Source: Folioceros fuciformis
Taxonomy: Eukaryota
Reading direction: 5' to 3'
Length of the DNA stretch: 45,587 nucleotides
Assembly: GCA_049999805.1 (NCBI GenBank)
Contig: JBNGIO010004138.1
Span: 1-45,587, forward strand
In this document: positions 1,914 to 37,489 of the stretch, piece after piece
Numbering within the stretch: position 1 is the stretch's first letter
Layout: each line of letters starts with the position of its first letter
Position numbers and translations under genes: made by a program
The notes under the pieces: model-generated
Told to the model about the DNA's origin: nothing
Database searches by the model: none
Seen by the model: only the letters and a program-made list of their open reading frames with translations

Positions 1914-3149
1914 ATGAATATGAGGCAACCATGGATATGTAATAATATGTTTTCCATTACTCGGAATGAAAATGCTGAATGTACAAGTGTTGAAAATTTA
2001 CCACGCGTGGGCCATGTTTTTGAATCCGGACAAACTATAGAAATGCAAAGTGTGAGTCCATGGGAGAAGTTAAATGAAGACTTAGTGGAAAGGATTTTAG
2101 TTTACTTACCCTTGTCCCAAATATTCCAATCCCAAATGGTATGCAAGAAATGGTGCTCTATTATATCTCAAAGGTCATTCTTAAAACTACGTGCTCAAAT
2201 GTTTGCAAGGCCTATAACCTACTTTCCTTTGTTCATTTCTTTCAATCCTACTCGAGAATGTTTTGCCCACAATTTTGTGGGCAATGTGTGGGAAAAACTA
2301 CCAGCTCTTTCTTTCTTACCTCCCTACATAACTGGACCTGTGAAAGGTGCTGGGTGCTTCCTATGCTTTTATTACCATTCAGAACCTCTAGGACTCATAA
2401 CTCATGTGGTGTGTAATCCCTTCACCAAGAGGTGGAAAACGCTACCACATATGAAACATAAACGAGTTCGTCCCTTGCTGAATCACATGGTCATAGTGGA
2501 CAAAACAACAAAGGCTTACAAGATTGTTGTGGCTGATGACGATCATTGTTTTGTTACACCTTCTCAAGATAAGGTTTTTATGACCACCGAGGTGTATGAT
2601 TCCACATTAAGCTCATGGTGCGTTACTAGTCGAGTTCCTCTGAAGCTTGATAGTAGTGGCACAAGCGCGTTTTGTAATGGGCTGATATATTCTGTAGCTA
2701 CCGATGATGATTCGAAAAACCAACTGGGTATTATTTCCTACAACGTAGCAGAAGAAAAATGGAATGGTGTTCCTCTTAGATTGTCTGATAATTTTTGCAT
2801 CACTGACCTTGTAGAGTGTAATGGATATGTGATTGTGGTGGCAGAACTATTCAGGCACGGTCTGTTTGTTAGTGTCAATATATTCAAACATGAACCAACC
2901 ACACAAAGTTTTCTTCACTTAGCAGCAGTTCCTGATAACCTTTTCATTCTCTGTCTGAAAAATGGATTTTTTTGTGTAGGACATGATGATCTTCTTTGTT
3001 TCATAAGTTACACTAGTTTGATAGTTCTTGTTTTCAATATCACATTGACTTCTTGGAGTACCTTGTGTTCCTGCCCATTTGCACATGCTGAGAATGTTTA
3101 CAGAGTAGCAACGTTTCCATTACAACCTCATCTTGATCAAATTGTGTGA
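1914..3149 (+). CDS. Intronless F-box protein with C-terminal kelch/FBA-type beta-propeller region
   Basis: 411-aa ORF with F-box motif WEKLNEDLVERILVYLP..SQMVCKKWCSII..FL, followed by VCNPFTKRWKTLP, YKIVV and TEVYDSTLSSW, typical of plant F-box/kelch-like proteins. The true start Met is uncertain. Confidence 0.9.
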   Translation: MNMRQPWICNNMFSITRNENAECTSVENLPRVGHVFESGQTIEMQSVSPWEKLNEDLVERILVYLPLSQIFQSQMVCKKWCSIISQRSFLKLRAQMFARPITYFPLFISFNPTRECFAHNFVGNVWEKLPALSFLPPYITGPVKGAGCFLCFYYHSEPLGLITHVVCNPFTKRWKTLPHMKHKRVRPLLNHMVIVDKTTKAYKIVVADDDHCFVTPSQDKVFMTTEVYDSTLSSWCVTSRVPLKLDSSGTSAFCNGLIYSVATDDDSKNQLGIISYNVAEEKWNGVPLRLSDNFCITDLVECNGYVIVVAELFRHGLFVSVNIFKHEPTTQSFLHLAAVPDNLFILCLKNGFFCVGHDDLLCFISYTSLIVLVFNITLTSWSTLCSCPFAHAENVYRVATFPLQPHLDQIV

Positions 3150-3555
3150 GATCAAAACACTTAGACTGCGGGGGGGACAGACAATACAAAACAAAAAGAC
3201 AGACTTTTTGTATATTAATAAAAGAAATGCACAGATGTACTAGTCGTTCTCTTCCCCTTCCCTTCCTGTTCCCCCTTCTCGCGCAGCGACGCGACAAGAG
3301 GGGATTAGGATGTGGCTGTTTTGGCTTGATGTGTGTTACAAGATTTCTAAGAAACACATCACGCCCTGAGGGTTGTTGGTTGGCAACAAAACATGTCAAA
3401 CCTCGGCTTGGTTGTGTTCAGATAATGCGACACACTGAACTCCTCCACAGCCATTGATGTAACTGATTGTATAGACCCATGGTGGATGAAGGGCAGCTGC
3501 ATTTTTGCAGGCCTGACAGACGGGCTTTCATCCTTGGGTGCAGGCTTAGCAGGGC

Positions 3556-6551
3556 ATGACTATGGAGAGGGTGCCAGGCAGGTGGCAAGCATCCCAAGGA
3601 GTGGGTGCTGAAGGGGATGATGCTGCGTCTGCTTCCAACGTGACCCACCTGTCCTATGACGTTGATCACCGCCAATCCAAGACGCCAAGACCTGATTCTA
3701 AGTACATTCGCCACCTCTCTAAGCATGGCTGGCTGGCCTTTGTTGTTGGTACACGGTGATGGTCATCCTGGCCGCTGCTTGAAGCTGGGTCGCTGTATTG
3801 TCTTCTGTGTAACAGTAGATGAGATGTCGGGTGGGGTTTCAGGTGGCCGACGCTGAATGATGACGACAGCGGCACCAATTGCCTGGCGAACGGATTGGAG
3901 ATGACAGTTCTGTCCAACCTACCGGGGCCAGACTATGCGCTATGTGTGGAGCCGTTTGTGCCCTTCGAGTTGCTCCCCCGCGAGGGACTGAATCAGCGGC
4001 TCAAGGATGCCGTGGAACGTGCTGAACATCGCCAAGTATCCACATCTGCAGGCCCTGTCCCCGCAGAGCACGCGCCTGCAAACACGGGCCCTCGCAGCTC
4101 CATCAAGAAGAAAAGGAGGCGGGTTTCCCTGCAGGCAGCGTTCGGAGGAAGCAGGAACGTGTGGGAGGGCATTTCTGCTGCTAACAGGGAGCGGAGGCGG
4201 CCGTCCGACCTGGTGGCATCGCCTGCCCCGCTTCTATGTGCTGGAAAGACGGGTCCCGGCTCGGGACCTGCAGCCGCCGACAAGGAAAGGAAACTTGGCG
4301 GATGCGGAATCGGAATGGCATCCGGAGACGCGCCGGCTCCCTTCCGTGCTTCCAAGCCCAACTTTCTGTCAGACGACAGCGACAGCGACAGCGACAGCGA
4401 CTCCTCCTGCTTCTCCGACGGGGCTGCCTCCTCGGAGGAGTCCAAGCTGCAGGAAGACTTCCACCGGAAATTTCACCAGGAGCTGAGCCGCACGCTGGAG
4501 TTCGAGCAGCACGGCGGGCACAAGGGGAGGTGCATCAAAGTCCCCGAGCTGAAGCCGAAACGCAAGGCTTGTCTCCCGCACTGGCACTGCAGCAACAGCA
4601 TCAGAGTCACCAGTGACCGGATGAGCCTGGGCCTCCCTCCAGAGCCGATGCTTCCGCTCCACCTCCCCCTCGACGGAGTTCGTTTGGGCGGGGCGCCTCT
4701 GACTGGAAACGACTCCATTCCCCCTGGNNNNNNNNNNNNNNNNNNNNNNNNNNNNNNNNNNNNNNNNNNNNNNNNNNNNNNNNNNNNNNNNNNNNNNNNN
4801 NNNNNNNNNNNNNNNNNNNNNNNNNNNACCTTAAACCGATGCTGCCCAGGGAAGCTGTGCAGCGGCCCCCTGCAGATCACCACGGCCACGGGGGTGGAGC
4901 GGGAGCGGGGACTCGGAAGGCACCCCCAGCAACGGGTCCGCAGGGAAGACTGTCCCCATGGCCAGCCCACCGGCCCATGAAGGTGCCCCAGACTCCCCCT
5001 GCGCTTCCGGCTGCACCAGGAGGATGGGTACAGCAGAGCGGTCCGGAGTCGAGAGCAAGCTCCCGAGCGAGCTCTCGCGCAGCGTCTCCCGCTCCTGTCC
5101 AAGAGGCGAGGGAGATCCGGATAGGCCCTTGGAACAGCTTGTCGCCGAGGACCGATCTGCTGGGCTGCGCGGCGCCCGGCGGTGCTGGAAATGTTGGAAA
5201 TGGATCCGGAAAGGAGCAGTGTGGCGCCTTCTGTTTCAACATCCCGCTGCCCGGGGAGCGGTCTCTGCTGGTAAGGGCTGAGACGGGTCCCAAACAGGTG
5301 CATATATCGGTCTCGTTGCAGGATGTGAGCGGAGAGTTGGACGGGACGTTGCTGGCAGAACGAGACCGGGTTTGCGATCAGCAGCGGCATGGGGAGCAAA
5401 ATAGTCAGGCCCAGTTCTCGACACCGTCCTGTAAGAACTGGACGGCAAGGAAGCGTAGCGTGTCTTGGAGCTGTCCTGAGATTCTAGGCCCCGGTGTGGC
5501 GCCTTCTGCTACCAGGCCACCTCCTCCTGCACGGTCGCGAGGAGTGCCTGTGAGTGGGCCCAGAGCGGCGTCTCCTGCATCATGGAATCTGCCGCTGCAA
5601 GGTCCGGTGAGGCGAGAGCCGTCTCCTGTCTCATGGAACATATCAGTACAGGGCGGAGCAGCAGCGAGGACACCTTCTCCACCATGTGACCGTCCAGACT
5701 GCGGACAGCAAGCGGAAGGGGATCATGGCCATGCCGATGTCACCACACCCCTCCAGGCATTGACCCCGGTGGCTTGCCCAAGCGCAATACCGGCGCAAGA
5801 TCTGGCATACCAGCATCTTGAAGCAGTGGTAGTGGAATCCAGCGACGGCAGCGAGCATACCGTGCTGCTAGAACCTAGCAATGACAGGGAGCCTACGGTG
5901 CTGCTAGAACGTAGCGATGAGAGGGAGCTTACCGTGCTGCTAAAGCCTGGGGATGGCGGGGAGCCTTCTCCTCCAAAGCCGTTGCACCTGTCCGAGCAGC
6001 ATCTGGCAGCAGTATCTTCACTGCATGAAGGCATGGCCGGGCTTGTGTCCTGCCGAAACATCCAAGTGCAGCCGGGTGTGATACGGGACATCCTGGACTG
6101 CCAAAACGCAGCTAGTTTCCAAGAGGTGAAGGCGGTGGATGTAGCAGTAGTGGCAGTGGCCCGGTGTGAGCAGGATGATCACAAGAGAAGGACGTCGGAT
6201 TTGAAGTTCTCCAAGTCCAATCACAATTTCTTGGAGAAACTGGCAAGAAAGGCAGGGTCAGGGGATCCCCACTGTGTGCGGGCCTTGAAACCGTTCCAAG
6301 AAGAGGCGGGGAAGGAAAACGAGTGCGGGGAATGTGAGCCCCAGAAGTGTAGCAGGAGGTGTTGCAGGATGGGAGCGAGTCAGAGTCATCGCATCCTCGT
6401 TGGCGCGCAAAAGGAACTACCAAAGGCACAGGTTTCTGCTCACTCCCAGACGGAGAACGGTATTCCGTTGGATGGCGGTAAAACACATTGGCTTTCGCTT
6501 TTCAAACGAGCAATTCGCCAGAAGTCGAAGGAGTTCAACGCCTATGTGTGA
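3556..6551 (+). CDS. Uncharacterised, largely disordered Pro/Ser-rich protein; probable intron 3756-3842; interrupted by an assembly gap
   Basis: GC-rich open frames 3843-4727 and 4830-6551 lie on either side of the N run. A short upstream ORF from ATG 3556 joins in frame through CG|gtgatg...tttcag|G. No domain recognised. Confidence 0.6.
4728..4827. other. Assembly gap (100 N)
   Basis: Run of exactly 100 N. The reading frame differs across it, so the true length is unknown. Confidence 0.99.
5841..5966 (+). repeat. Coding 36-bp (12-aa) tandem repeat, ~3.5 copies
   Basis: SDGSEHTVLLEP / SNDREPTVLLER / SDERELTVLLKP / GDGGEP. Confidence 0.9.
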
Positions 6552-8058: not shown

Positions 8059-9351
8059 TTAGACAGCTTCAAAAATCATGACTCCATTGGTGATGTCGGT
8101 TTTGTGGTGTGCAAACTCCCTGGCCTTCTCGTAAGCTTTAGGCCAAGGCTGCTTCCTTTCTTTGTCCTTGTGAGCCCCACCCCATGCACTCTTGTATGTG
8201 GACGGATTGATGTCAAACTGGTCAGGCCTTCCCCCGCCAGGTGCAGGTGCAGGTGCAGGTGCAGGTGCAGGTGTCGGTGCCGGTGCCGGTGCCGGTGCGG
8301 AGGCAGGTGGAGACGCAGGCTTTGAGGATGCACAGGAGGTGGCAGGCTTGCAGGAAGTTGGAGGAGAGGCTGCCTTTGGAGATGATGCACACGAGGTTTC
8401 AGGCTTGGAGGAGGCCGGAGGAGAGGCTGGCTTCGAGGATGCACAGGAGGTTTCGGGCTTAGAGGAAGCCGGAGGGGAGGCTGGCTTCGAAGATGCACAG
8501 GAGGTCTCAGCCTTGGAGGAGGCCGGAGGAGAGGCTGGCTTGGAGGTTGGGGGAGTGGCAGGGTTGGAGCACGCAGGAGGAGAAGCAGGTTTTGAGGATG
8601 CACAGGATGAATCAGGCTTGGAGGAAGGGGTAGGAGCGGGAGTCTTGGAGCCTGCAGGAGGAGATGCTGGCTTGGATGAGGGACAGGAGGAGGCAGGAGG
8701 GGAGCTAGGGTTTGGGGGAGAGTCAGGTTTCTTGGCTGGGCATGCGGGAGGGGAGGCAGGCTTGGAGGATGCGCATGGAGGAGATGCAGGTTTAGGAGAG
8801 CTTGTTACCGTCTTGGACTGCAGGACATTGTCAGGCTTGGGTTGAGGGTCTCCCAGGGCCTCCGGATGGGCAAACACATGCGGGGTAAGCTCCTTGACGC
8901 CGGGCTCCGGCACGGAGCGTGTGGTGAATTTGGAGGCCGTGGTGTAGGGCTTCTCGCCCACATGCGTACTCAGGCGCAGCGGCTTGGTGTACGACTTCTC
9001 CTTCTCTGGCTTGGTGGTTTCCTTGAGGATGGGCGCCGCGTACGTCCTGGTGTCCGTCGGCTTGGCCGGCTTCCGGGCCGCCTGCAGCGCGTAGTCCGTC
9101 TTGGTGGTGTGGTCGATGGCGTGCACAGGCCACTCGTATGGCGTGTAGTCGTAGGGGTTGATAGGAGGCCTGCCCTCGTCGTAGGGCGGAGGCTTCCCGG
9201 AGTGAGCTGGTGGAGGCGGGTGCAGCGCCAGGGTCACATCCGTGGATTTGCGCCCCCACCATAGTTGATCCCAATGCGGATCGAAGTTGGGGTTGTCTGT
9301 CCACATGGATTTCCTGCGCGCCCCCTGCGGCTTCCTCCCCCTCGACGCCAT
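8059..9351 (-). CDS. Uncharacterised 430-aa Pro/Ser/Ala/Lys-rich repeat protein
   Basis: Long GC-rich ORF. Likely start MASRGRKPQG at 9351 (the frame is open to 9543). Complex N- and C-termini flank a degenerate repeat whose variation is largely synonymous. Confidence 0.75.
   Translation of the reverse strand: MASRGRKPQGARRKSMWTDNPNFDPHWDQLWWGRKSTDVTLALHPPPPAHSGKPPPYDEGRPPINPYDYTPYEWPVHAIDHTTKTDYALQAARKPAKPTDTRTYAAPILKETTKPEKEKSYTKPLRLSTHVGEKPYTTASKFTTRSVPEPGVKELTPHVFAHPEALGDPQPKPDNVLQSKTVTSSPKPASPPCASSKPASPPACPAKKPDSPPNPSSPPASSCPSSKPASPPAGSKTPAPTPSSKPDSSCASSKPASPPACSNPATPPTSKPASPPASSKAETSCASSKPASPPASSKPETSCASSKPASPPASSKPETSCASSPKAASPPTSCKPATSCASSKPASPPASAPAPAPAPTPAPAPAPAPAPGGGRPDQFDINPSTYKSAWGGAHKDKERKQPWPKAYEKAREFAHHKTDITNGVMIFEAV
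8239..8795 (-). repeat. Coding minisatellite: ~54-bp units (SCASSKPASPPASSKPET) plus a (PA)n hexamer microsatellite
   Basis: Recurrent gaggatgcacaggagg..ggcttggaggaggc.ggaggagaggctgg at 8299-8795; (ggtgca)n(ggtgcc)n at 8239-8298. Confidence 0.95.
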
Positions 9352-9612
9352 CCTGCAAGTCACCACCACACCAATTTTCCAGCAGCATGGAGATGGCGCC
9401 GCACGTCCAGTGCTGTGCACTGGATCCCAACACCGATACGGGAGTTGGTGGGTGAAACGGCGGGTCCAGCTGGACGTTCCTTTGATGATCTCCCACCTCT
9501 TCTGCTGCCACGTGGCTTGCAGATAGCCACCTCGTCCTACCATGCAGCACCATCATACATACCGTCTACGTACTGTACGTGTCAACCTACAAGTGTGCTA
9601 CATGTGTATTGT

Positions 9613-9623
9613 ATCCCACATCG
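9613..9623 (+). promoter_or_regulatory. Plant snRNA-type upstream sequence element (USE)
   Basis: ATCCCACATCG is an exact match to the plant USE consensus RTCCCACATCG. The nearest TATAA is at 9670, which is atypical spacing. Confidence 0.5.
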
Positions 9624-9669
9624 TCGTAGAGGGTGGCCAGGTGGCCTTCTCTGAAGACCCTACGGTGGG

Positions 9670-9710
9670 TATAACGGCTCCCGGCCTTTTCTGCGACAGG
9701 GGTAGGGTTT
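9670..9710 (+). promoter_or_regulatory. TATA-like box and telo-box of the putative snoRNA-cluster promoter
   Basis: TATAA at 9670-9674 and TAGGGTTT (reverse complement of AAACCCTA) at 9703-9710. Telo-boxes near the TSS are typical of plant snoRNA and ribosome-biogenesis promoters. Confidence 0.5.
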
Positions 9711-9819
9711 GGGGCGGAGGACTTGTCGGCTCGGTCCGACTTGAACAAGGGCCGTCTTCAGGAATGTTTGATGCGTTTCCAGGCCTCTGGTCGGTCGACT
9801 ACCGGCTTCCGTTCAAGCT

Positions 9820-10019
9820 CATAGCTTTCGGTTGTGGCGTCGCGTTTGAATGGGACACCCATGGCTTTCTGTTGTGGCATCGTGTTTGAACGGGATACCC
9901 ATAGCTTTCTGCCGAGGCGTTGCGCAAGAGCGGGGTTCCCATAGCGTTATACTGCGGCGCTGCGCCAGAGCGTGATTCCCATGGCGTTGTACTGCGGCGC
10001 TGCGCCAGAGCGGGATTCT
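9820..10019 (+). repeat. Five degenerate tandem units of exactly 40 bp (sixth related unit at 10297-10336)
   Basis: Units start CAT(A/G)GC at 9820, 9860, 9900, 9940 and 9980, with no indels. Confidence 0.92.
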
Positions 10020-10069
10020 CTCCCGGCTTTGGAGTGGCCTGTCAGGGTTTCTCGTTGCTTTTCTCTCTC

Positions 10070-10148
10070 GCTCCGATGATGAGTGCTATTTCGAAAAGTA
10101 GTGGTCTTAGCTCTGGCCAGATGCTGAGAAGTACAGCGCATGAGGAGC
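10070..10148 (+). ncRNA. Box C/D snoRNA copy 1; D' guide antisense to 25S rRNA ACCACUACUUUU (SNORD75-type site)
   Basis: Terminal stem GCTCC/GGAGC; box C ATGATGA at 10076; guide AAAAGTAGTGGT at 10094-10105 then D' CTTA; C' ATGCTGA at 10121; box D ATGA at 10140. Confidence 0.8.
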
Positions 10149-10385
10149 TCAATGATGCCCGTTCTTCTTGTTTTTCGTCCTGAGTATGATTGTTTTAGGG
10201 TTGCATGTGCCTACGGTTCTCTCAGCCTGGTGGGAAACATCTGTACCCAACAGGAGTAGACTTTGTTTTGTGTGTGGGGACAGGTCTGTTCCAACCCATA
10301 GGTTTCTCGCGCGTAGTTCCGCAAGAGCGAGATTGTCTCGCGTCCTTGGAGCGGGCTTCCGGGGTTTTTGCTTTGTTTCTTCGTT

Positions 10386-10460
10386 GCCCCGATGATGAGT
10401 GCAATTTCGAAAAGTAGTGGTCTTAGCTCAGGATGCTGAGAAGTTCAGCGCATGAGGGGC
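10386..10460 (+). ncRNA. Box C/D snoRNA copy 2 (paralog of 10070-10148)
   Basis: Terminal stem GCCCC/GGGGC (compensatory change versus copy 1); box C at 10392; identical guide at 10410-10421; C' at 10433; box D ATGA at 10452. Confidence 0.8.
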
Positions 10461-11026
10461 TTAATGATGCATGTGATGCATGTTCTTGTTTCATGTTTAT
10501 GGCGCTGGGTATGGTTTTCTTAGGTTTGCTTGTGACTGGGATTCTCTACAGAACTAGACAAACCTGTAGGTCAAGTTTCGTGATACCGCGTAACTTGTTT
10601 TTTGTGCGTCGGGCTTCCTTTCTTTTCTGTCCGGAATAGGTGAGATTTACCCTGATTGACTAGACGACTGCCAGGGTTCGGTGTATATCAATACGCGAGT
10701 GTGCAGGGAAGCTTTCTTGCTCTCATTTGTCAATGGCCTAGATTCGTTTCGTTTCGTTTGTCCGGTCACTTGCGGTCGCTTACTGTCGGGGTTCTTTGAG
10801 TTTGTTTCGAAGCCTTGGACCTATCTTGGGGTTTAGGGCTGATTCGTCCGTGGTGTTTGTTTATGTTTGATTTGGAGTCCTTGTTTCCAGCTAGGAAAAC
10901 TGCAGGGTCCCTTGGGCTGGCTGCTTACATGCGCCCGTAATGTCTTTTTGTTTCTCTTGAGCGTAGCGGTATGGCTTATGGCTTGTGGGAGAGAAAGGCT
11001 TCTCTTCTTAACTGGCTGGCTCGGTT

Positions 11027-11106
11027 CTCCCCGGGATTAACCAAAGATTTCAGCCTTGTCTGAAGTGCGATGAAGGACGAACACTAAATTCTAGTGAATG
11101 AGGGAG
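11027..11106 (+). ncRNA. Box C/D snoRNA; D' guide antisense to 18S rRNA CAAGGCUGAAA (yeast Gm1126/snR41-type site)
   Basis: Stem CTCCC/GGGAG; degenerate box C GGGATTA at 11033; guide TTTCAGCCTTG(T) at 11048-11059 then D' CTGA at 11060; C' GCGATGA at 11067; box D ATGA at 11098. Confidence 0.7.
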
Positions 11107-11177
11107 GCAGCCACTAGCGTGTTGATGACATCCTTCACCATTGTTTTTAGTTTAGCTGTGAGTCGGAACGTGTTGCC

Positions 11178-11255
11178 GCTCCCTATGATATTACAAATCT
11201 CAGCAGGTTCTGATTCTGCATGATGTACAAAATTCTCCAACGGATATGAGGGAGC
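11178..11255 (+). ncRNA. Box C/D snoRNA; D' guide possibly to the 3'-terminal region of 25S rRNA
   Basis: Stem GCTCCC/GGGAGC; box C-like ATGATAT at 11185; guide AATCTCAGCAGGTT at 11196-11209 then D' CTGA at 11210; C' ATGATGT at 11220; box D ATGA at 11246. Confidence 0.72.
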
Positions 11256-11968
11256 TCTGAAGACGGTCTGTTTTTTTCCGGATGCTGTGCAGTATGGTCT
11301 GGGGCCTTCTGCTCCATCGCTGGCTAGTTTCTCACGTGAAATGAAGTGTTTCTGCGAGTGTCGACCAGGAAGCCGTGGTCAAGAATGGCGTGCCTGTACC
11401 AATGTGCATGGGGCCCGGCCATGCTTCCGGATGACGGTGTTGCCGTGGTCACTTCCCTCGTTACCCATAACAGACGAAAGTCCCTAACGGTGCACACTGG
11501 ATCCCCTCAAGTCGAGTATGCAGACACGAAGAGACATGGAAATGAAGGGGCAAGCACCCGATGAAGCGGGTGGAACGTAGTCATTCTTCGCATTCACTGT
11601 TGTAGATGTCCGCAGAGTTTCTTATCTTATGTACTTATTGTTATGGTAAGTTTGATAAACCACGTGTTTCCCAACGACTGCGTGGCAATAAAATATTACT
11701 TCCTGCAAACTACCTAGGGATAGGTGTGACAGCTGACTTTCCCTAATATCCTTTGAGATTGTCTTGGGCAGAATCAGGCCTGACAGCCTGGGCGGCTCCT
11801 TTGAATTAGTTTTTATTTTATTTGCTTTTGGGGACTCGATATTTTACCAGACTTTGTTAACCACACTTTTCATCCAAGTAGCCTAGGGTTATGTATCATC
11901 GGAATTTATTAGAAAAACAGCAAAAGATTTTGATCCTTCAAGCCAGCTATTGGTGCCATGGTTCGATA

Positions 11969-12018
11969 CTTCACTCAGTTAGGAGGGTTTGCTCTTCACT
12001 CAGTTAGGAGGGTTTGCT
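11969..12018. repeat. Perfect 25-bp tandem duplication
   Basis: cttcactcagttaggagggtttgct x2. Confidence 0.95.
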
Positions 12019-12179
12019 TGTTTACTTGGTTTTGAACGTATTTTCTATGATTGAAAAAGAGATGGAAAGTCCCATCTATTCCAAAGATTGGAGGAACAAC
12101 TCCATTATGGCCAAAGGCAAAAAGAGGTATTCTCCCATGTGAATATCATTTTCAAAAACTACCTACTGCTCCCAAAATG

Positions 12180-15035
12180 TCATGATGTGGAATAATAAGG
12201 CCTACCTACCACTGGTGCCGAAGAAGCCGCTTGACCTGCGCTTGTTGTTGTTCTAAAAACTGCATTGGCCAATGCTCGTTGCAAAGCAATGGATACACGT
12301 TGTCGAAAGAAGGCTACCACAGAGAAAAGAAGGAGAACATCATTCCTATTGCTCTAATAAACCTTGGTGCACTCCTTGATAAACCTTGAAAAGTCCCTGC
12401 CCATAGCTCCATGAGTCTCAAGAGCAAGGGGGATGAAAGTATGCTCGTCTTGCAAGGGAGAATACTTATGGACTTTGGCACTTGCACAACCCTCTGCTGC
12501 CCAAACAGGGGGGTTGATGATGACGTGCTCACAAATCGAATCCCTAGTGGGATCTGTAACAACCACATTAGCAACACAAACCTGTTCTCCTCTAGTGAAG
12601 AAAAAGTCGGCTCTAAGTGAAACCCCATTGCGCAAAGTATATGGATGCTTTCTATACGGAAGAAACCCACACTCCCTAGCCATTGAGAACATGACATTCG
12701 GAACTGCATCATGAGTGCCAATGCGGTGCCCCCCAATGGGACAAGGTGCCAAATGGGACCCTGTATCGACAATGGCAACCCCACAACTGCATGTAGAGAG
12801 AGAAAAAGCCAAGGGGTGGGCCAAACCTAAGCAAAGTCTCATTGCGGTGGCGAAAGTTGCTGGTGCGATTCGAAACGCTTGGATGCAAGGTCGAGCTAAA
12901 AGCCAAGAGCCCGCTCCTTTACCTGAACAAGAGCAAATACGAGCTCGAGAAGACGTAGGGATGGATGAGTCTGAAAGAAGGGCTCTTAGTGCTTGGCCAT
13001 ATTGCTTTTCTAGGAGGGAGGCTTGGAGACCCTTCAACCCTTCCCTAGAAAAGGAGGTGAAAGGAGGTAGAGCCTCACGAGCCTCCAAAGGTAGAGAATC
13101 CCTCACTTGCCTAAGAGATACCCGTAAAGGGAAAACGCCCTCCTCAACACCTGAAATAAAACTGTCAAGAACAGGGGAATCTTGTAGCAAAAACGAGAGG
13201 CCAAAATTGGAGCTGAGAGGGCCCAGCTGCCGAGAAAGGCAGCTGGGGCAGAGGCCGCCATGGCCAAAAGACCAACCCCTCCAAAGGGGATTGGCAAAGA
13301 AGCCTGCTTTCGAGCCAAATCATGGACAACACACTCCAACGTGCCCGGACTTATGATGTTCCCAAGAGCCTGCATAACTTGTTTGTCAAACTTCCTGAGA
13401 CTTGATAAGAAAATGGAGAAGGTGCAACAGTTCTAGTAAGGTAACCTGGTCACAATGTAAAACAAGAAGAAAGGATACCAAACGCAATAAGAGGATCACT
13501 GATTTGTGAGAGGTCCATGATATGAGCCAAATCTTCATCCAATGCTTCATCTACAAACTTATGAACAAAATCAGGAGGTCCCACAGGCACACCCAAGACT
13601 CGAAGTCCCTACGAGGGGGTGATATCCCCCCCCCAAATATTGAAGGCGAGGAGTGATGCTTGAAGGGGACCAAACCCTGCATTTAGATAGCTTGACCCAC
13701 AACCCCACCTTGGAGAGCTCTGATGAGAAGAAATCAAATGTTGCTTTGACTGTGACTCCTTGCCCAAGAATATGAGTGTCATCAGTCATGGAAGGGAAAA
13801 GGCATTCCCGAAATGCTAAGGCAGTAGAGGACAATGCACGAAAATGCGCCATAGCAAAAAGAGCACCCCCCAGCCGATCCCCTTGCCTTGTGCCTGTTGC
13901 TGAATCAAGAACTGAGACCCCCTCAATAGTCGGGCCGTGTTGGTAGTAGAGCTTGGATGGCGAGCCATAGAAGGAGCGAACAAAAGGGATAAGACTTGAC
14001 AATTGATCTCCTGCACTCTTGAGCTCCGAGAAGATGTCGACCTTAGAGACGGTATTGAAAGCATTCTCAATATCAACCTGCAAAGCTACCCAGTGAGGAT
14101 GTAACTCAAGGGCCGCTTGGATGCCGAGAGCGGCATATTCACACCTACCTGGGGTAGCAATCCCAAATTAGTGGGGTGCAAGATGTGCTTGGAAGTACTC
14201 CCGAAGTTGAATTGCGATGCTTCGGCTGATAAGGCACAAGAAAACCTCCCCCACAGCAATGGGGCGTATTCCTGAGGTGGGCTGTTCCAATGCAAGTAGC
14301 CTACTAGCCGCTAAAACTTGAGAGATTCGATTGGGAACTTCGCCCCTAGCCACAACAGCTGCTAGTGTATAAAGCTCCGAAAAACCACTTGAGGGATCCT
14401 CAGGAGAAAAATAATCTCAAAAATGGTCATAAATTGTGCTAGACAGACCCCCGGCAGAAAGTCATGGCGCAGAAGAGAGTGCATGCTCAAAAACAACCCT
14501 ATCCAAGCAAAAAGGCTCCTCAACCGTGTGGTCAAGAAGATCTTCTGGTATAGTGTCATGAGGTTTTGGATGAAGGGCACGAAGTGCAGCAATGGTGTCC
14601 TCGGTTGCAGATGCAGCCGACTTTGGGCGCAATGCTCTAGCAACCCGAGCATATTCACCATCCCTGCCCAACATGAGACACCGCTTGAGACGAGCTTTAA
14701 ATGGCTCATGGCATACCTCGTAAACCTTAGTTGACTCCAATTAAGATTTTGCTGCTAGTAAATCCTCCTCCTGAATAGCTTGCCAATCTTCGAATAAAAA
14801 ACGGTGAAGACGAGAGGCCACCTCCCTATGACCTGACGGACCACCCCTAGAGCGTTGAAGGCACCATCTAGGCAGGAAAAGCAACAAAATCCAAGCACCC
14901 TCATCCCTCGGGTCCCGAACAAGGCGATCCAAAGAAAGACGATAAGCAAGGCGAATATCATCATGTAGGCGCATAGGGAGACGTCGAAAGAGACGAGGAC
15001 ATGGAAAACAAGCATGGAAAAGAGCCAACTTGTTT
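12180..15035 (-). mobile_element. Decayed, 5'-truncated non-LTR retrotransposon with RT, zinc knuckle and restriction-like endonuclease (CRE-like); 3' boundary approximate
   Basis: Minus-strand fragments in order: IRPIAVGEVFLCLISR, LQVDIENAFNTVS, GTRQGDRLGGALF, SMTDDTHI, KLSKCRVW, LPIPFGGVG, GAGSWL, CSCG..GSHLAPCPIGG.RIGTHDAV, LRADF, NVVVTDP, AKVHKY, FIPLALETHG. Multiple stops (14741, 14462, 14168, 12354) and frameshifts. Confidence 0.9.

Positions 15036-22034: not shown

Positions 22035-37489
<15,455 letters not shown>

What the first reader, a model, noticed from the sequence alone, without database searches (positions are those of the whole stretch)
10070..11255. Unannotated polycistronic cluster of four box C/D snoRNAs
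Seen: four 75-80-nt modules on the + strand (10070, 10386, 11027, 11178), each with a GC terminal stem, C, D', C' and D boxes, separated by T-rich spacers in a region with no credible CDS. Established: plant snoRNAs are often transcribed as polycistrons. From recall, the D' guides pair with conserved rRNA segments. Possible splice signals (ag|GTGAGA at 10640, tgcag| at 11292) suggest that two of the snoRNAs may be intronic in a non-coding host RNA.
Basis: partly seen in the sequence, partly recalled or inferred. Interest (0 to 1): 0.8.

Follow-up and report, generated by a model that had tools for sequence, protein, structure and literature searches.

The report
Plant box C/D snoRNA gene cluster
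Four small RNA genes sit in a row in a plant genome and look like guides that mark ribosomal RNA for methylation; this is an ordinary kind of gene cluster, but every copy carries an uncommon spelling of one signature motif.

Summary
The four modules are real, at the stated coordinates and far beyond chance. A stem + C box + NUGA + stem scan gives 4 hits in the window, 3 of them here, against 0.17 expected.

M1 and M2 are tandem paralogs. The module is 70/75 identical while its flanks are 130/217 identical. Four of the five substitutions form two compensatory base pairs.

M3's D' guide lies flush against a canonical CUGA. It pairs with 18S GCAAGGCUGAAA, the yeast snR41/Gm1126 site. Entamoeba and Chlamydomonas CrCD32 snoRNAs use the same guide.

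The M1/M2 D' guide is a perfect 12-mer complement to plant-type 25S. M4 has good boxes but no target in the partial rRNA set I could assemble.

- All four D boxes read AUGA, not CUGA.
- M3's C box is degenerate (GGGAUUA).
- The M1/M2 D' box is CUUA.
- No Rfam family reaches threshold.

Expression, polycistronic transcription and the proposed intron could not be tested.

Verdict: very probably genuine box C/D snoRNA genes, new members of a known kind, in a land plant that is probably not an angiosperm. Interest is modest.

The parts
10070..10148 (+). M1, box C/D snoRNA-like gene. Stem GCUCC/GGAGC; C AUGAUGA 10076-10082; D' guide AAAAGUAGUGGU 10094-10105; D' CUUA 10106-10109; C' UGCUGA 10122-10127; D AUGA 10140-10143.
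   Evidence: The guide is a 12-nt perfect complement to plant-type 25S.
10386..10460 (+). M2, tandem paralog of M1 (repeat unit about 316 nt). Stem GCCCC/GGGGC; same C, D' guide (10410-10421), D' (10422-10425), C' (10434-10439) and D (10452-10455).
   Evidence: The module is 70/75 identical against 130/217 in the flanks. Two compensatory pairs: columns 3/77 and 18/64.
11027..11106 (+). M3. Stem CUCCC/GGGAG; degenerate C box GGGAUUA 11033-11039; D' guide UUUCAGCCUUGU 11048-11059; D' CUGA 11060-11063; C' CGAUGA 11068-11073; D AUGA 11098-11101.
   Evidence: the guide pairs with 18S GCAAGGCUGAAA (11 Watson-Crick pairs + 1 G-U), flush to CUGA. The same guide + CUGA occurs in Entamoeba Me-Eh-SSU-G1152 and Chlamydomonas CrCD32.
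11178..11255 (+). M4. 6-bp stem GCUCCC/GGGAGC; C AUGAUAU 11185-11191; D' guide region 11195-11209; D' CUGA 11210-11213; C' AUGAUGU 11220-11226; D AUGA 11246-11249. No rRNA target found.
   Evidence: (snoR53Y 26.7 bits, below the gathering score of 43).
9817..10017 (.). Five tandem 40-nt repeats just upstream of M1, with one more copy at 10294-10334 upstream of M2. Role unknown; possibly part of the duplicated unit or the promoter region.
9703..9710 (.). TAGGGTTT, a telo-box-like motif in reverse orientation about 360 nt upstream of M1. Weak promoter hint only: 5 such motifs occur in the window.
   Evidence: The link between telo boxes and plant snoRNA or ribosomal-protein promoters is recalled knowledge.

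Best explanation
The stretch 10070-11255 holds a cluster of four same-strand box C/D snoRNA genes. They arose by tandem duplication, as two pairs (M1/M2 and M3/M4) that probably share one ancestor.

Proposed mechanism. Each RNA would be cut out of a longer T-rich precursor. Its 5-6 bp terminal stem and C/D kink-turn would protect it, and it would assemble with Snu13, Nop56/58 and fibrillarin. It would then direct 2'-O-methylation of the rRNA nucleotide paired to the fifth guide position upstream of the D' box.

Predicted targets:
- M3: the G in 18S CGCAAG*GCUGAAAC, the site methylated in yeast as Gm1126 by snR41.
- M1 and M2: the C in 25S GAAAUACCAC*UACUUUU.
- M4: an intact-looking orphan.

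In M1/M2 the region that would normally be the D guide is instead paired with the sequence just after the C box. That makes them single-guide RNAs.

Shown: the architecture, the excess over chance, the structural covariation, module-specific conservation and the guide complementarity. Inferred: processing, snoRNP assembly, methylation and co-transcription.
For: (1) Motif architecture is far above chance. There are 4 hits in the window, 3 of them in this 1.2 kb, against a mean of 0.17 in 200 shuffled windows. The terminal stems appear in 4 of 4 MFE folds.

(2) M1 against M2: the module is 70/75 identical and the flanks 130/217, Fisher p = 8e-9. A 26-nt block covering the guide and D' is invariant.

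(3) Four of the 5 substitutions form 2 compensatory pairs, U-A to C-G in the terminal stem and U-A to A-U in an internal helix. All 32 of 32 cells pair, against 31-59% when the partners are slid by 1-3 columns.

(4) M3's guide UUUCAGCCUUGU is flush with CUGA. It pairs with GCAAGGCUGAAA in 10 of 15 eukaryotic SSU loci, and an eleventh locus has a perfect 12-mer (L172 and L161 confirmed as SSU rRNA). The identical guide + CUGA is printed for Entamoeba Me-Eh-SSU-G1152, which its authors equate with yeast snR41/18S G1126 (PMC3542256, passages). It is also printed for Chlamydomonas CrCD32-1 to -4 (PMC5122169, supplementary file 9).

(5) The M1/M2 guide is a perfect 12-mer complement in 5 of 5 plant-type LSU loci: L097 and L114-L117.

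(6) Positional control. Only 13 of 20000 random genomic 79-mers have an exact rRNA complement of 11 nt or more flush with CTGA. With one mismatch allowed in the box the count is 203 of 20000.

(7) M4 resembles M3 (z 6.1), M1 (z 4.8) and M2 (z 5.3), with 0 of 500 shuffles reaching each score. This fits one duplicating family.

(8) AUGA D boxes occur in accepted snoRNAs: 2 of 41 in Entamoeba and 'a small fraction' in Dictyostelium.

(9) DNA-run depth of about 5-9 across the cluster, against about 3000 on the neighbouring repeat, indicates a single-copy locus.
Against: - No expression evidence. No listed run is on record as RNA, and only contigs could be laid.
- No Rfam family reaches its gathering score; the best is snoR53Y at 26.7 against 43.
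- All four D boxes are AUGA. In M1, M2 and M4 this replaces the G-C pair of the kink-turn with a mismatch (inference).
- M3's C box is poor, and the M1/M2 D' box is CUUA.
- Without the positional requirement the complementarity is not significant. A 12-mer complement appears in 84 of 3000 shuffles of M1 and 127 of 3000 random 79-mers. An 11-mer appears in 407 of 3000 shuffles of M3. With G-U pairs allowed, the modules' best scores (10.6-12.8) sit around the random mean of 11.7.
- Neither predicted site is in the Arabidopsis RiboMethSeq table. It lists no Gm between 18S Gm599 and Gm1275, and no Cm between 25S Cm2366 and Cm2683 (PMC8583080, Table 1).
- M4 found no target.
- The organism's own rRNA was never seen. 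The references are contaminant or metagenome pieces from other organisms.
Confidence: 0.78

Rival explanations
1. The modules are decaying relics of snoRNA genes, that is pseudogenes left by tandem duplication. They are no longer assembled into stable snoRNPs because the D box has mutated to AUGA and, in M3, the C box as well.
For: All 4 of 4 D boxes are non-canonical. M3's C box matches 4 of 7 positions. M4 has no rRNA target. No Rfam family reaches threshold. No expression was shown.
Against: M1/M2 show compensatory changes and 93% module identity against 60% flank identity, which needs selection after the duplication. The same AUGA is kept in copies whose guides have diverged completely, which points to retention rather than decay. 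AUGA D boxes exist in accepted snoRNAs. Decay of M3 alone remains quite possible.
Confidence: 0.14
2. Chance co-occurrence of short motifs in a T-rich, repeat-bearing intergenic region.
For: The boxes are short and degenerate. A fifth stem + CUGA candidate at 10570-10660 is about what chance predicts once no C box is required. Guide complementarity without positional constraints is not significant.
Against: Three hits fall in 1.2 kb against 0.17 expected per 45 kb. Two compensatory pairs are present. M3's guide + box is identical to published snoRNAs of two other lineages. The flush-guide frequency is 13 of 20000.
Confidence: 0.02
3. The RNAs are real box C/D RNAs, but some of them, M4 above all, act on targets other than rRNA: a snRNA, a tRNA, an mRNA or a pre-rRNA folding step. 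Alternatively they may be processed into smaller regulatory RNAs.
For: M4 has four good boxes and a 6-bp stem, yet no rRNA complement next to D' or D in the references available. The D-guide regions of M3 and M4 are also orphan.
Against: The rRNA reference was incomplete. Plant-type sequence covered only parts of 18S and 25S, and no snRNA or tRNA set could be tested. The absence of an rRNA target is therefore weak evidence.
Confidence: 0.06

Closest known systems
Yeast snR41, Chlamydomonas CrCD32 and Entamoeba Me-Eh-SSU-G1152 (guides for 18S Gm1126 in yeast numbering)
   Same: M3 carries the same 12-nt antisense element UUUCAGCCUUGU directly followed by CUGA. It therefore selects the same 18S nucleotide.
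   Different: In CrCD32 and the Entamoeba RNA this element sits before the terminal D box; in M3 it sits before the internal D' box. M3's terminal boxes are GGGAUUA and AUGA. I saw no sequence similarity outside the guide. The snR41 sequence itself was not examined; the equivalence is as stated in PMC3542256.
Plant polycistronic snoRNA gene clusters (Arabidopsis and rice; recalled from Brown, Echeverria and Qu 2003 and Chen et al. 2003, neither of which could be read here)
   Same: Several 75-80-nt C/D modules lie on one strand, separated by T-rich spacers of 70-570 nt. Tandem paralogs are present, and there is no nearby coding sequence on that strand.
   Different: Co-transcription is not shown. 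All D boxes are AUGA. None of the module strings I searched for occurs in the held supplements of the 296-family plant survey PMC5122169, where one file is cut.
Rfam snoR53Y (RF01279)
   Same: M4 aligns end to end with the model, sharing a G:UCCC...GGGA:C terminal stem and the box positions.
   Different: The score of 26.7 bits is below the gathering score of 43. M4's guide regions do not align with those of the snoR53Y consensus, and a scan of full-length 18S found no complement flush with M4's D' or D box. AtsnoR53Y is assigned to 18S Am801 in PMC8583080 Table 1. M4 is therefore not a member.

Membership tests
Box C/D snoRNA | C box RUGAUGA close to the 5' end | tested here: inconclusive
   M1 and M2 have AUGAUGA, an exact match. 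M4 has AUGAUAU (5 of 7). M3 has GGGAUUA (4 of 7, with the GA core kept).
Box C/D snoRNA | D box CUGA close to the 3' end | tested here: not met
   All 4 of 4 read AUGA. The GA core of the kink-turn is kept. AUGA is a documented minor variant: 2 of 41 in Entamoeba and a small fraction in Dictyostelium.
Box C/D snoRNA | Terminal stem of 4-6 bp joining the two ends next to boxes C and D | tested here: met
   Perfect 5-6 bp stems in 4 of 4 modules, all present in the MFE folds. One compensatory change separates M1 from M2.
Box C/D snoRNA | Antisense element of 10 nt or more to rRNA or snRNA, ending at the D or D' box | tested here: met
   M3: 12 bp (1 G-U) flush with CUGA. M1/M2: 12 Watson-Crick bp flush with CUUA. 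M4: none found. Controls: 13 and 203 of 20000.
Box C/D snoRNA | Accumulates as a discrete small RNA bound by fibrillarin, Nop56/58 and Snu13 | not testable with these tools
   No RNA reads were available; only contigs of guessed type.
Any curated Rfam snoRNA family | Covariance-model score at or above the family's gathering threshold | tested here: not met
   0 hits at gathering thresholds in the whole window. The best sub-threshold hits are snoR53Y at 26.7 against 43 and sR60 at 20.6 against 50.
Polycistronic snoRNA transcription unit | All modules lie on one precursor transcript | not testable with these tools
   One contig of run X1 (kind guessed as RNA) spans 8310-11709 without joints. This cannot show a single transcript or its strand.
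Intronic snoRNAs (M3 and M4 in an intron, 10640-11292) | A splice junction joining 10639 to 11293 | tested here: inconclusive
   No joint at these places in 3 of 3 runs laid. All three are contigs and none is on record as RNA.

The most novel reading that the evidence does not exclude
This is a lineage-specific snoRNA family that works with an AUGA D box in every member and diversifies by tandem duplication and guide turnover. It would include:
- a land-plant counterpart of the snR41/CrCD32 guide for an 18S G that Arabidopsis does not methylate;
- a guide for a previously unlisted 25S Cm in GAAAUACCAC*UACUUUU;
- a freshly re-targeted orphan, M4.

If so, this plant keeps an ancient 18S modification that Arabidopsis lacks and has added a new 25S one.
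Probability: 0.35. Interest if true: 0.4.

Novelty: new member of a known kind. Interest (0 to 1): 0.3.

Why it matters
Box C/D snoRNA clusters are textbook features of plant genomes, so the class is not new.

The modest value lies in three points:
- It gives testable methylation predictions for a poorly annotated plant lineage. One is at the yeast-Gm1126-equivalent 18S site, which the Arabidopsis map lacks. The other is at a 25S C that no map I could read lists.
- It is a natural set of four paralogs that all carry an AUGA D box, which bears on how much the kink-turn tolerates.
- The M1/M2 pair is a clean small example of compensatory evolution after tandem duplication.

Tried and rejected
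**Own genome.** None is held, so the organism's rRNA and snRNAs could not be used.

**Sequencing runs.** No RNA holder is listed. The three runs laid are contigs. X1, guessed to be RNA, gives one colinear contig over 8310-11709 with no joint. It ends 22 nt after an AATAAA at 11687. With one run of guessed kind, I draw nothing from this.

**rRNA references.**
- The metagenome scan with a plant 5.8S primer gave 88 loci. Many proved to be truncated rDNA fragments inside repeat-like plant DNA. Only the 18S 3' end (about 570 nt) and 5.8S plus the 25S 5' part were usable.
- Handles to extend these records are not held.
- Three primer scans of genome contigs recovered eukaryotic rRNA contaminants. 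A fourth scan, with a string copied from L114, recovered the plant-type 25S 3' end.
- Plant-type sequence is still missing for roughly 18S 1-920 and 25S 1600-2370. Only non-plant eukaryotes cover those parts.

**Targets rejected.**
- M4's D' guide matches a fungal-type 25S 3' end over 11 nt (L108, L119). The plant-type sequence there differs (L307-L309).
- M4's partial match to GACCCUGUUGAG and M3's match of its C-box region to 18S GGUUAAUUCCG are not flush with a box.

**Complementarity without position.** It is not significant, so I do not use it alone.

**Arabidopsis numbering of the 25S site.** I could not reconcile it exactly, so the site is given by its sequence context.

**Fifth candidate, 10570-10660.**
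- It has a stem GUCAA/UUGAC and a canonical CUGA. It also has a 15-bp complement, including G-U pairs, to 25S just 3' of the M1/M2 target.
- About one such hit is expected by chance.
- The duplex lies 5 nt away from the box, and 57 of 400 random 91-mers score as well.
- The segment looks to me, by eye on the alignment, related to the 40-nt repeat.

**Literature.**
- Full-text search for six guide strings found only the Entamoeba paper.
- Searches of the PMC5122169 supplements found only CrCD32; file 9 is cut.
- The rice snoRNA papers PMC156054 and PMC3716300 are not held, so rice Z-series snoRNAs with these guides cannot be excluded.

**Other look-ups.** Earlier-findings look-ups gave nothing for this genome or these sequences. 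The ORF at 8059-9543 on the minus strand has no homolog.

Full report
**Context.** The window is plant nuclear DNA. Its ORFs match an F-box/At3g26010-like propeller, a GT47 exostosin, neurobeachin/BEACH-WD40 parts and a Myb/SANT-like domain. The GT47 ORF finds its best relatives at only 37-50% identity, and the named ones among the top hits are Sphagnum, Ginkgo, Diphasiastrum, Physcomitrium and Selaginella. The organism is therefore probably a land plant outside the angiosperms. No whole genome is held.

**Observation.**
- Each is 75-80 nt long with a perfect 5-6 bp GC-rich terminal stem. That stem appears in the minimum-free-energy fold of 4 of 4 modules, with z-scores of -2.4, -1.1, -0.9 and -1.5.
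- Box readings: M1 and M2 have AUGAUGA / CUUA / UGCUGA / AUGA. M3 has GGGAUUA / CUGA / CGAUGA / AUGA. M4 has AUGAUAU / CUGA / AUGAUGU / AUGA.
- None has a canonical CUGA D box, and M3's C box is degenerate.
- A scan for stem, C box, [C/A]UGA and stem complement gave 4 hits in the window, 3 of them here and none of the CUGA type. The mean in 200 shuffled windows was 0.17.
- Spacers are 34-40% T, and no ORF of 120 aa or more overlaps the cluster.
- DNA-run depth is single-copy, unlike the repeat that starts near 11920.

**Evidence of selection.** M1 and M2 belong to a tandem duplication of about 316 nt.
- Within the module, 70 of 75 aligned positions are identical. In the flanks, 130 of 217 are (Fisher p = 8e-9).
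- Of the five substitutions, four form two compensatory pairs. These are U-A to C-G in the terminal stem and U-A to A-U in an internal helix that joins the sequence after box C to the sequence before box D.
- All 32 of 32 cells pair, against 31-59% when the partners are slid. With two sequences the shuffle control is uninformative (134 of 500). By my own combinatorial estimate, two complete pairs among five random substitutions has a probability below 1e-3.
- The remaining differences fall in the D'-C' linker.
- The internal helix occupies what would be the D guide, so M1 and M2 look like single-guide (D') RNAs.
- M4 resembles M3, M1 and M2 well above shuffles, while M1 and M3 do not resemble each other. 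This fits one family that duplicated and then changed guides while keeping the stem and AUGA.

**Targets.** I had to build rRNA references from contaminant and metagenome pieces. Four of them were checked with Rfam as SSU or LSU rRNA, as were L127 and L069 and L051.
- M3's D' guide UUUCAGCCUUGU ends directly at CUGA. It pairs with GCAAGGCUGAAA (11 Watson-Crick pairs and 1 G-U) in 10 of 15 eukaryotic SSU loci. L139 has a perfect 12-mer, three others carry variants, and L159 is cut inside the motif.
- The same guide + CUGA is printed for Entamoeba Me-Eh-SSU-G1152, which its authors equate with yeast snR41/18S G1126 (PMC3542256, passages). It is also printed for Chlamydomonas CrCD32-1 to -4 (PMC5122169, supplementary file 9).
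- The M1/M2 D' guide AAAAGUAGUGGU ends at CUUA. It is a perfect complement to ACCACUACUUUU in the 5 plant-type LSU loci. The 9 other LSU loci that cover this place read differently at the 3' end of the match. 'Plant-type' rests on my recollection of plant 25S, not on a named record.
- Controls matter here. Without a positional requirement such complements are common: 12-mers appear in 84 of 3000 shuffles and 11-mers in 407 of 3000, and G-U-tolerant scores are at the random mean.
- Requiring an exact complement of 11 nt or more flush with CTGA leaves 13 of 20000 random 79-mers. Allowing one box mismatch leaves 203 of 20000.
- The M3 target is therefore strong and the M1/M2 target moderate.
- Neither site appears in the Arabidopsis RiboMethSeq table (PMC8583080, Table 1 read in full).
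- M4 found nothing next to D' or D, and the plant-type 25S 3' end does not fit it. Plant-type coverage of the reference is incomplete, so this is weak evidence.

**The AUGA D boxes.** In the kink-turn, the first D-box base pairs with the sixth C-box base; this is established structure, recalled.
- AUGA makes that pair a mismatch in M1, M2 and M4. In M3 (C-box U6) it makes a U-A pair. The GA cores are intact in all four.
- AUGA is a known minor D-box variant: 2 of 41 in Entamoeba and a small fraction in Dictyostelium.
- Its retention in four copies with unrelated guides argues for tolerance rather than decay, though M3 alone may be decaying.

**What could not be shown.**
- Expression, processing and co-transcription are all open. 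No listed run is on record as RNA.
- The laid contigs show no joint at 10640/11292.
- The intron idea is untested. The GTGAGA string also lies inside a chance-level fifth stem + CUGA candidate.

**Comparison and verdict.**
- No Rfam family reaches threshold.
- None of the module strings I searched occurs in the held supplements of the 296-family plant survey, where one file is cut.
- The rice papers were not readable.
- I file these as new members of the box C/D snoRNA class. M3 shares its guide, not demonstrable homology, with snR41 and CrCD32.
- Confidence that they are genuine snoRNA genes is about 0.78. Interest is modest.

Noticed in passing
window 9817-10017 and 10294-10334: Five tandem copies of a 40-nt unit lie directly upstream of M1, with one more copy upstream of M2. 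Each unit contains a GC-rich near-palindrome (GGCGC-T-GCGCC type). Function unknown.
   Followed up: partly
window 10570-10660 (+): A fifth snoRNA-like candidate. It has a stem GUCAA/UUGAC, a weak C box GUGAUAC and a canonical CUGA. It also has a 15-bp complement (3 G-U pairs) to 25S AUUUUACUUAUUCCG, only 6 nt 3' of the M1/M2 target. The duplex lies 5 nt from the box, and 57 of 400 random 91-mers score as well.
   Followed up: yes
window 8059-9543 (-), repeats 8238-8697: A 494-aa ATG-started ORF rich in Pro, Ser and Ala, with repeated SSKPASPPA-like units encoded by 27/54/111-nt tandem repeats. It has no Pfam hit and no homolog. It may be a low-complexity protein gene divergent from the cluster, or a spurious frame in GC-rich repeats.
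   Followed up: partly
window 11687-11709: An AATAAA lies at 11687. The single contig of run X1 that covers 8310-11709 stops at 11709, while the DNA-run contigs continue. This is a possible poly(A) site of a host transcript, but it rests on one run whose RNA nature is only guessed.
   Followed up: partly
window about 11920-13500: A high-copy repeat. Summed contig depth is about 2000-3900 in the two DNA runs, against 5-16 for the neighbouring sequence, with many variant joints. It is presumably a transposable element.
   Followed up: no
loci L010, L052, L074, L075 and others of L001-L088: Many metagenome contigs that hold the plant 5.8S primer site are not rDNA arrays. They are truncated rDNA fragments (18S from about position 1230 onward, ITS, 5.8S and a short 25S start) embedded in unrelated, repeat-like plant DNA.
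   Followed up: partly
window 31926-32057 (+): A 132-nt hit of the stem + C box + AUGA + stem scan, outside the cluster. It is longer than typical snoRNAs, consistent with the chance expectation, and was not examined further.
   Followed up: no
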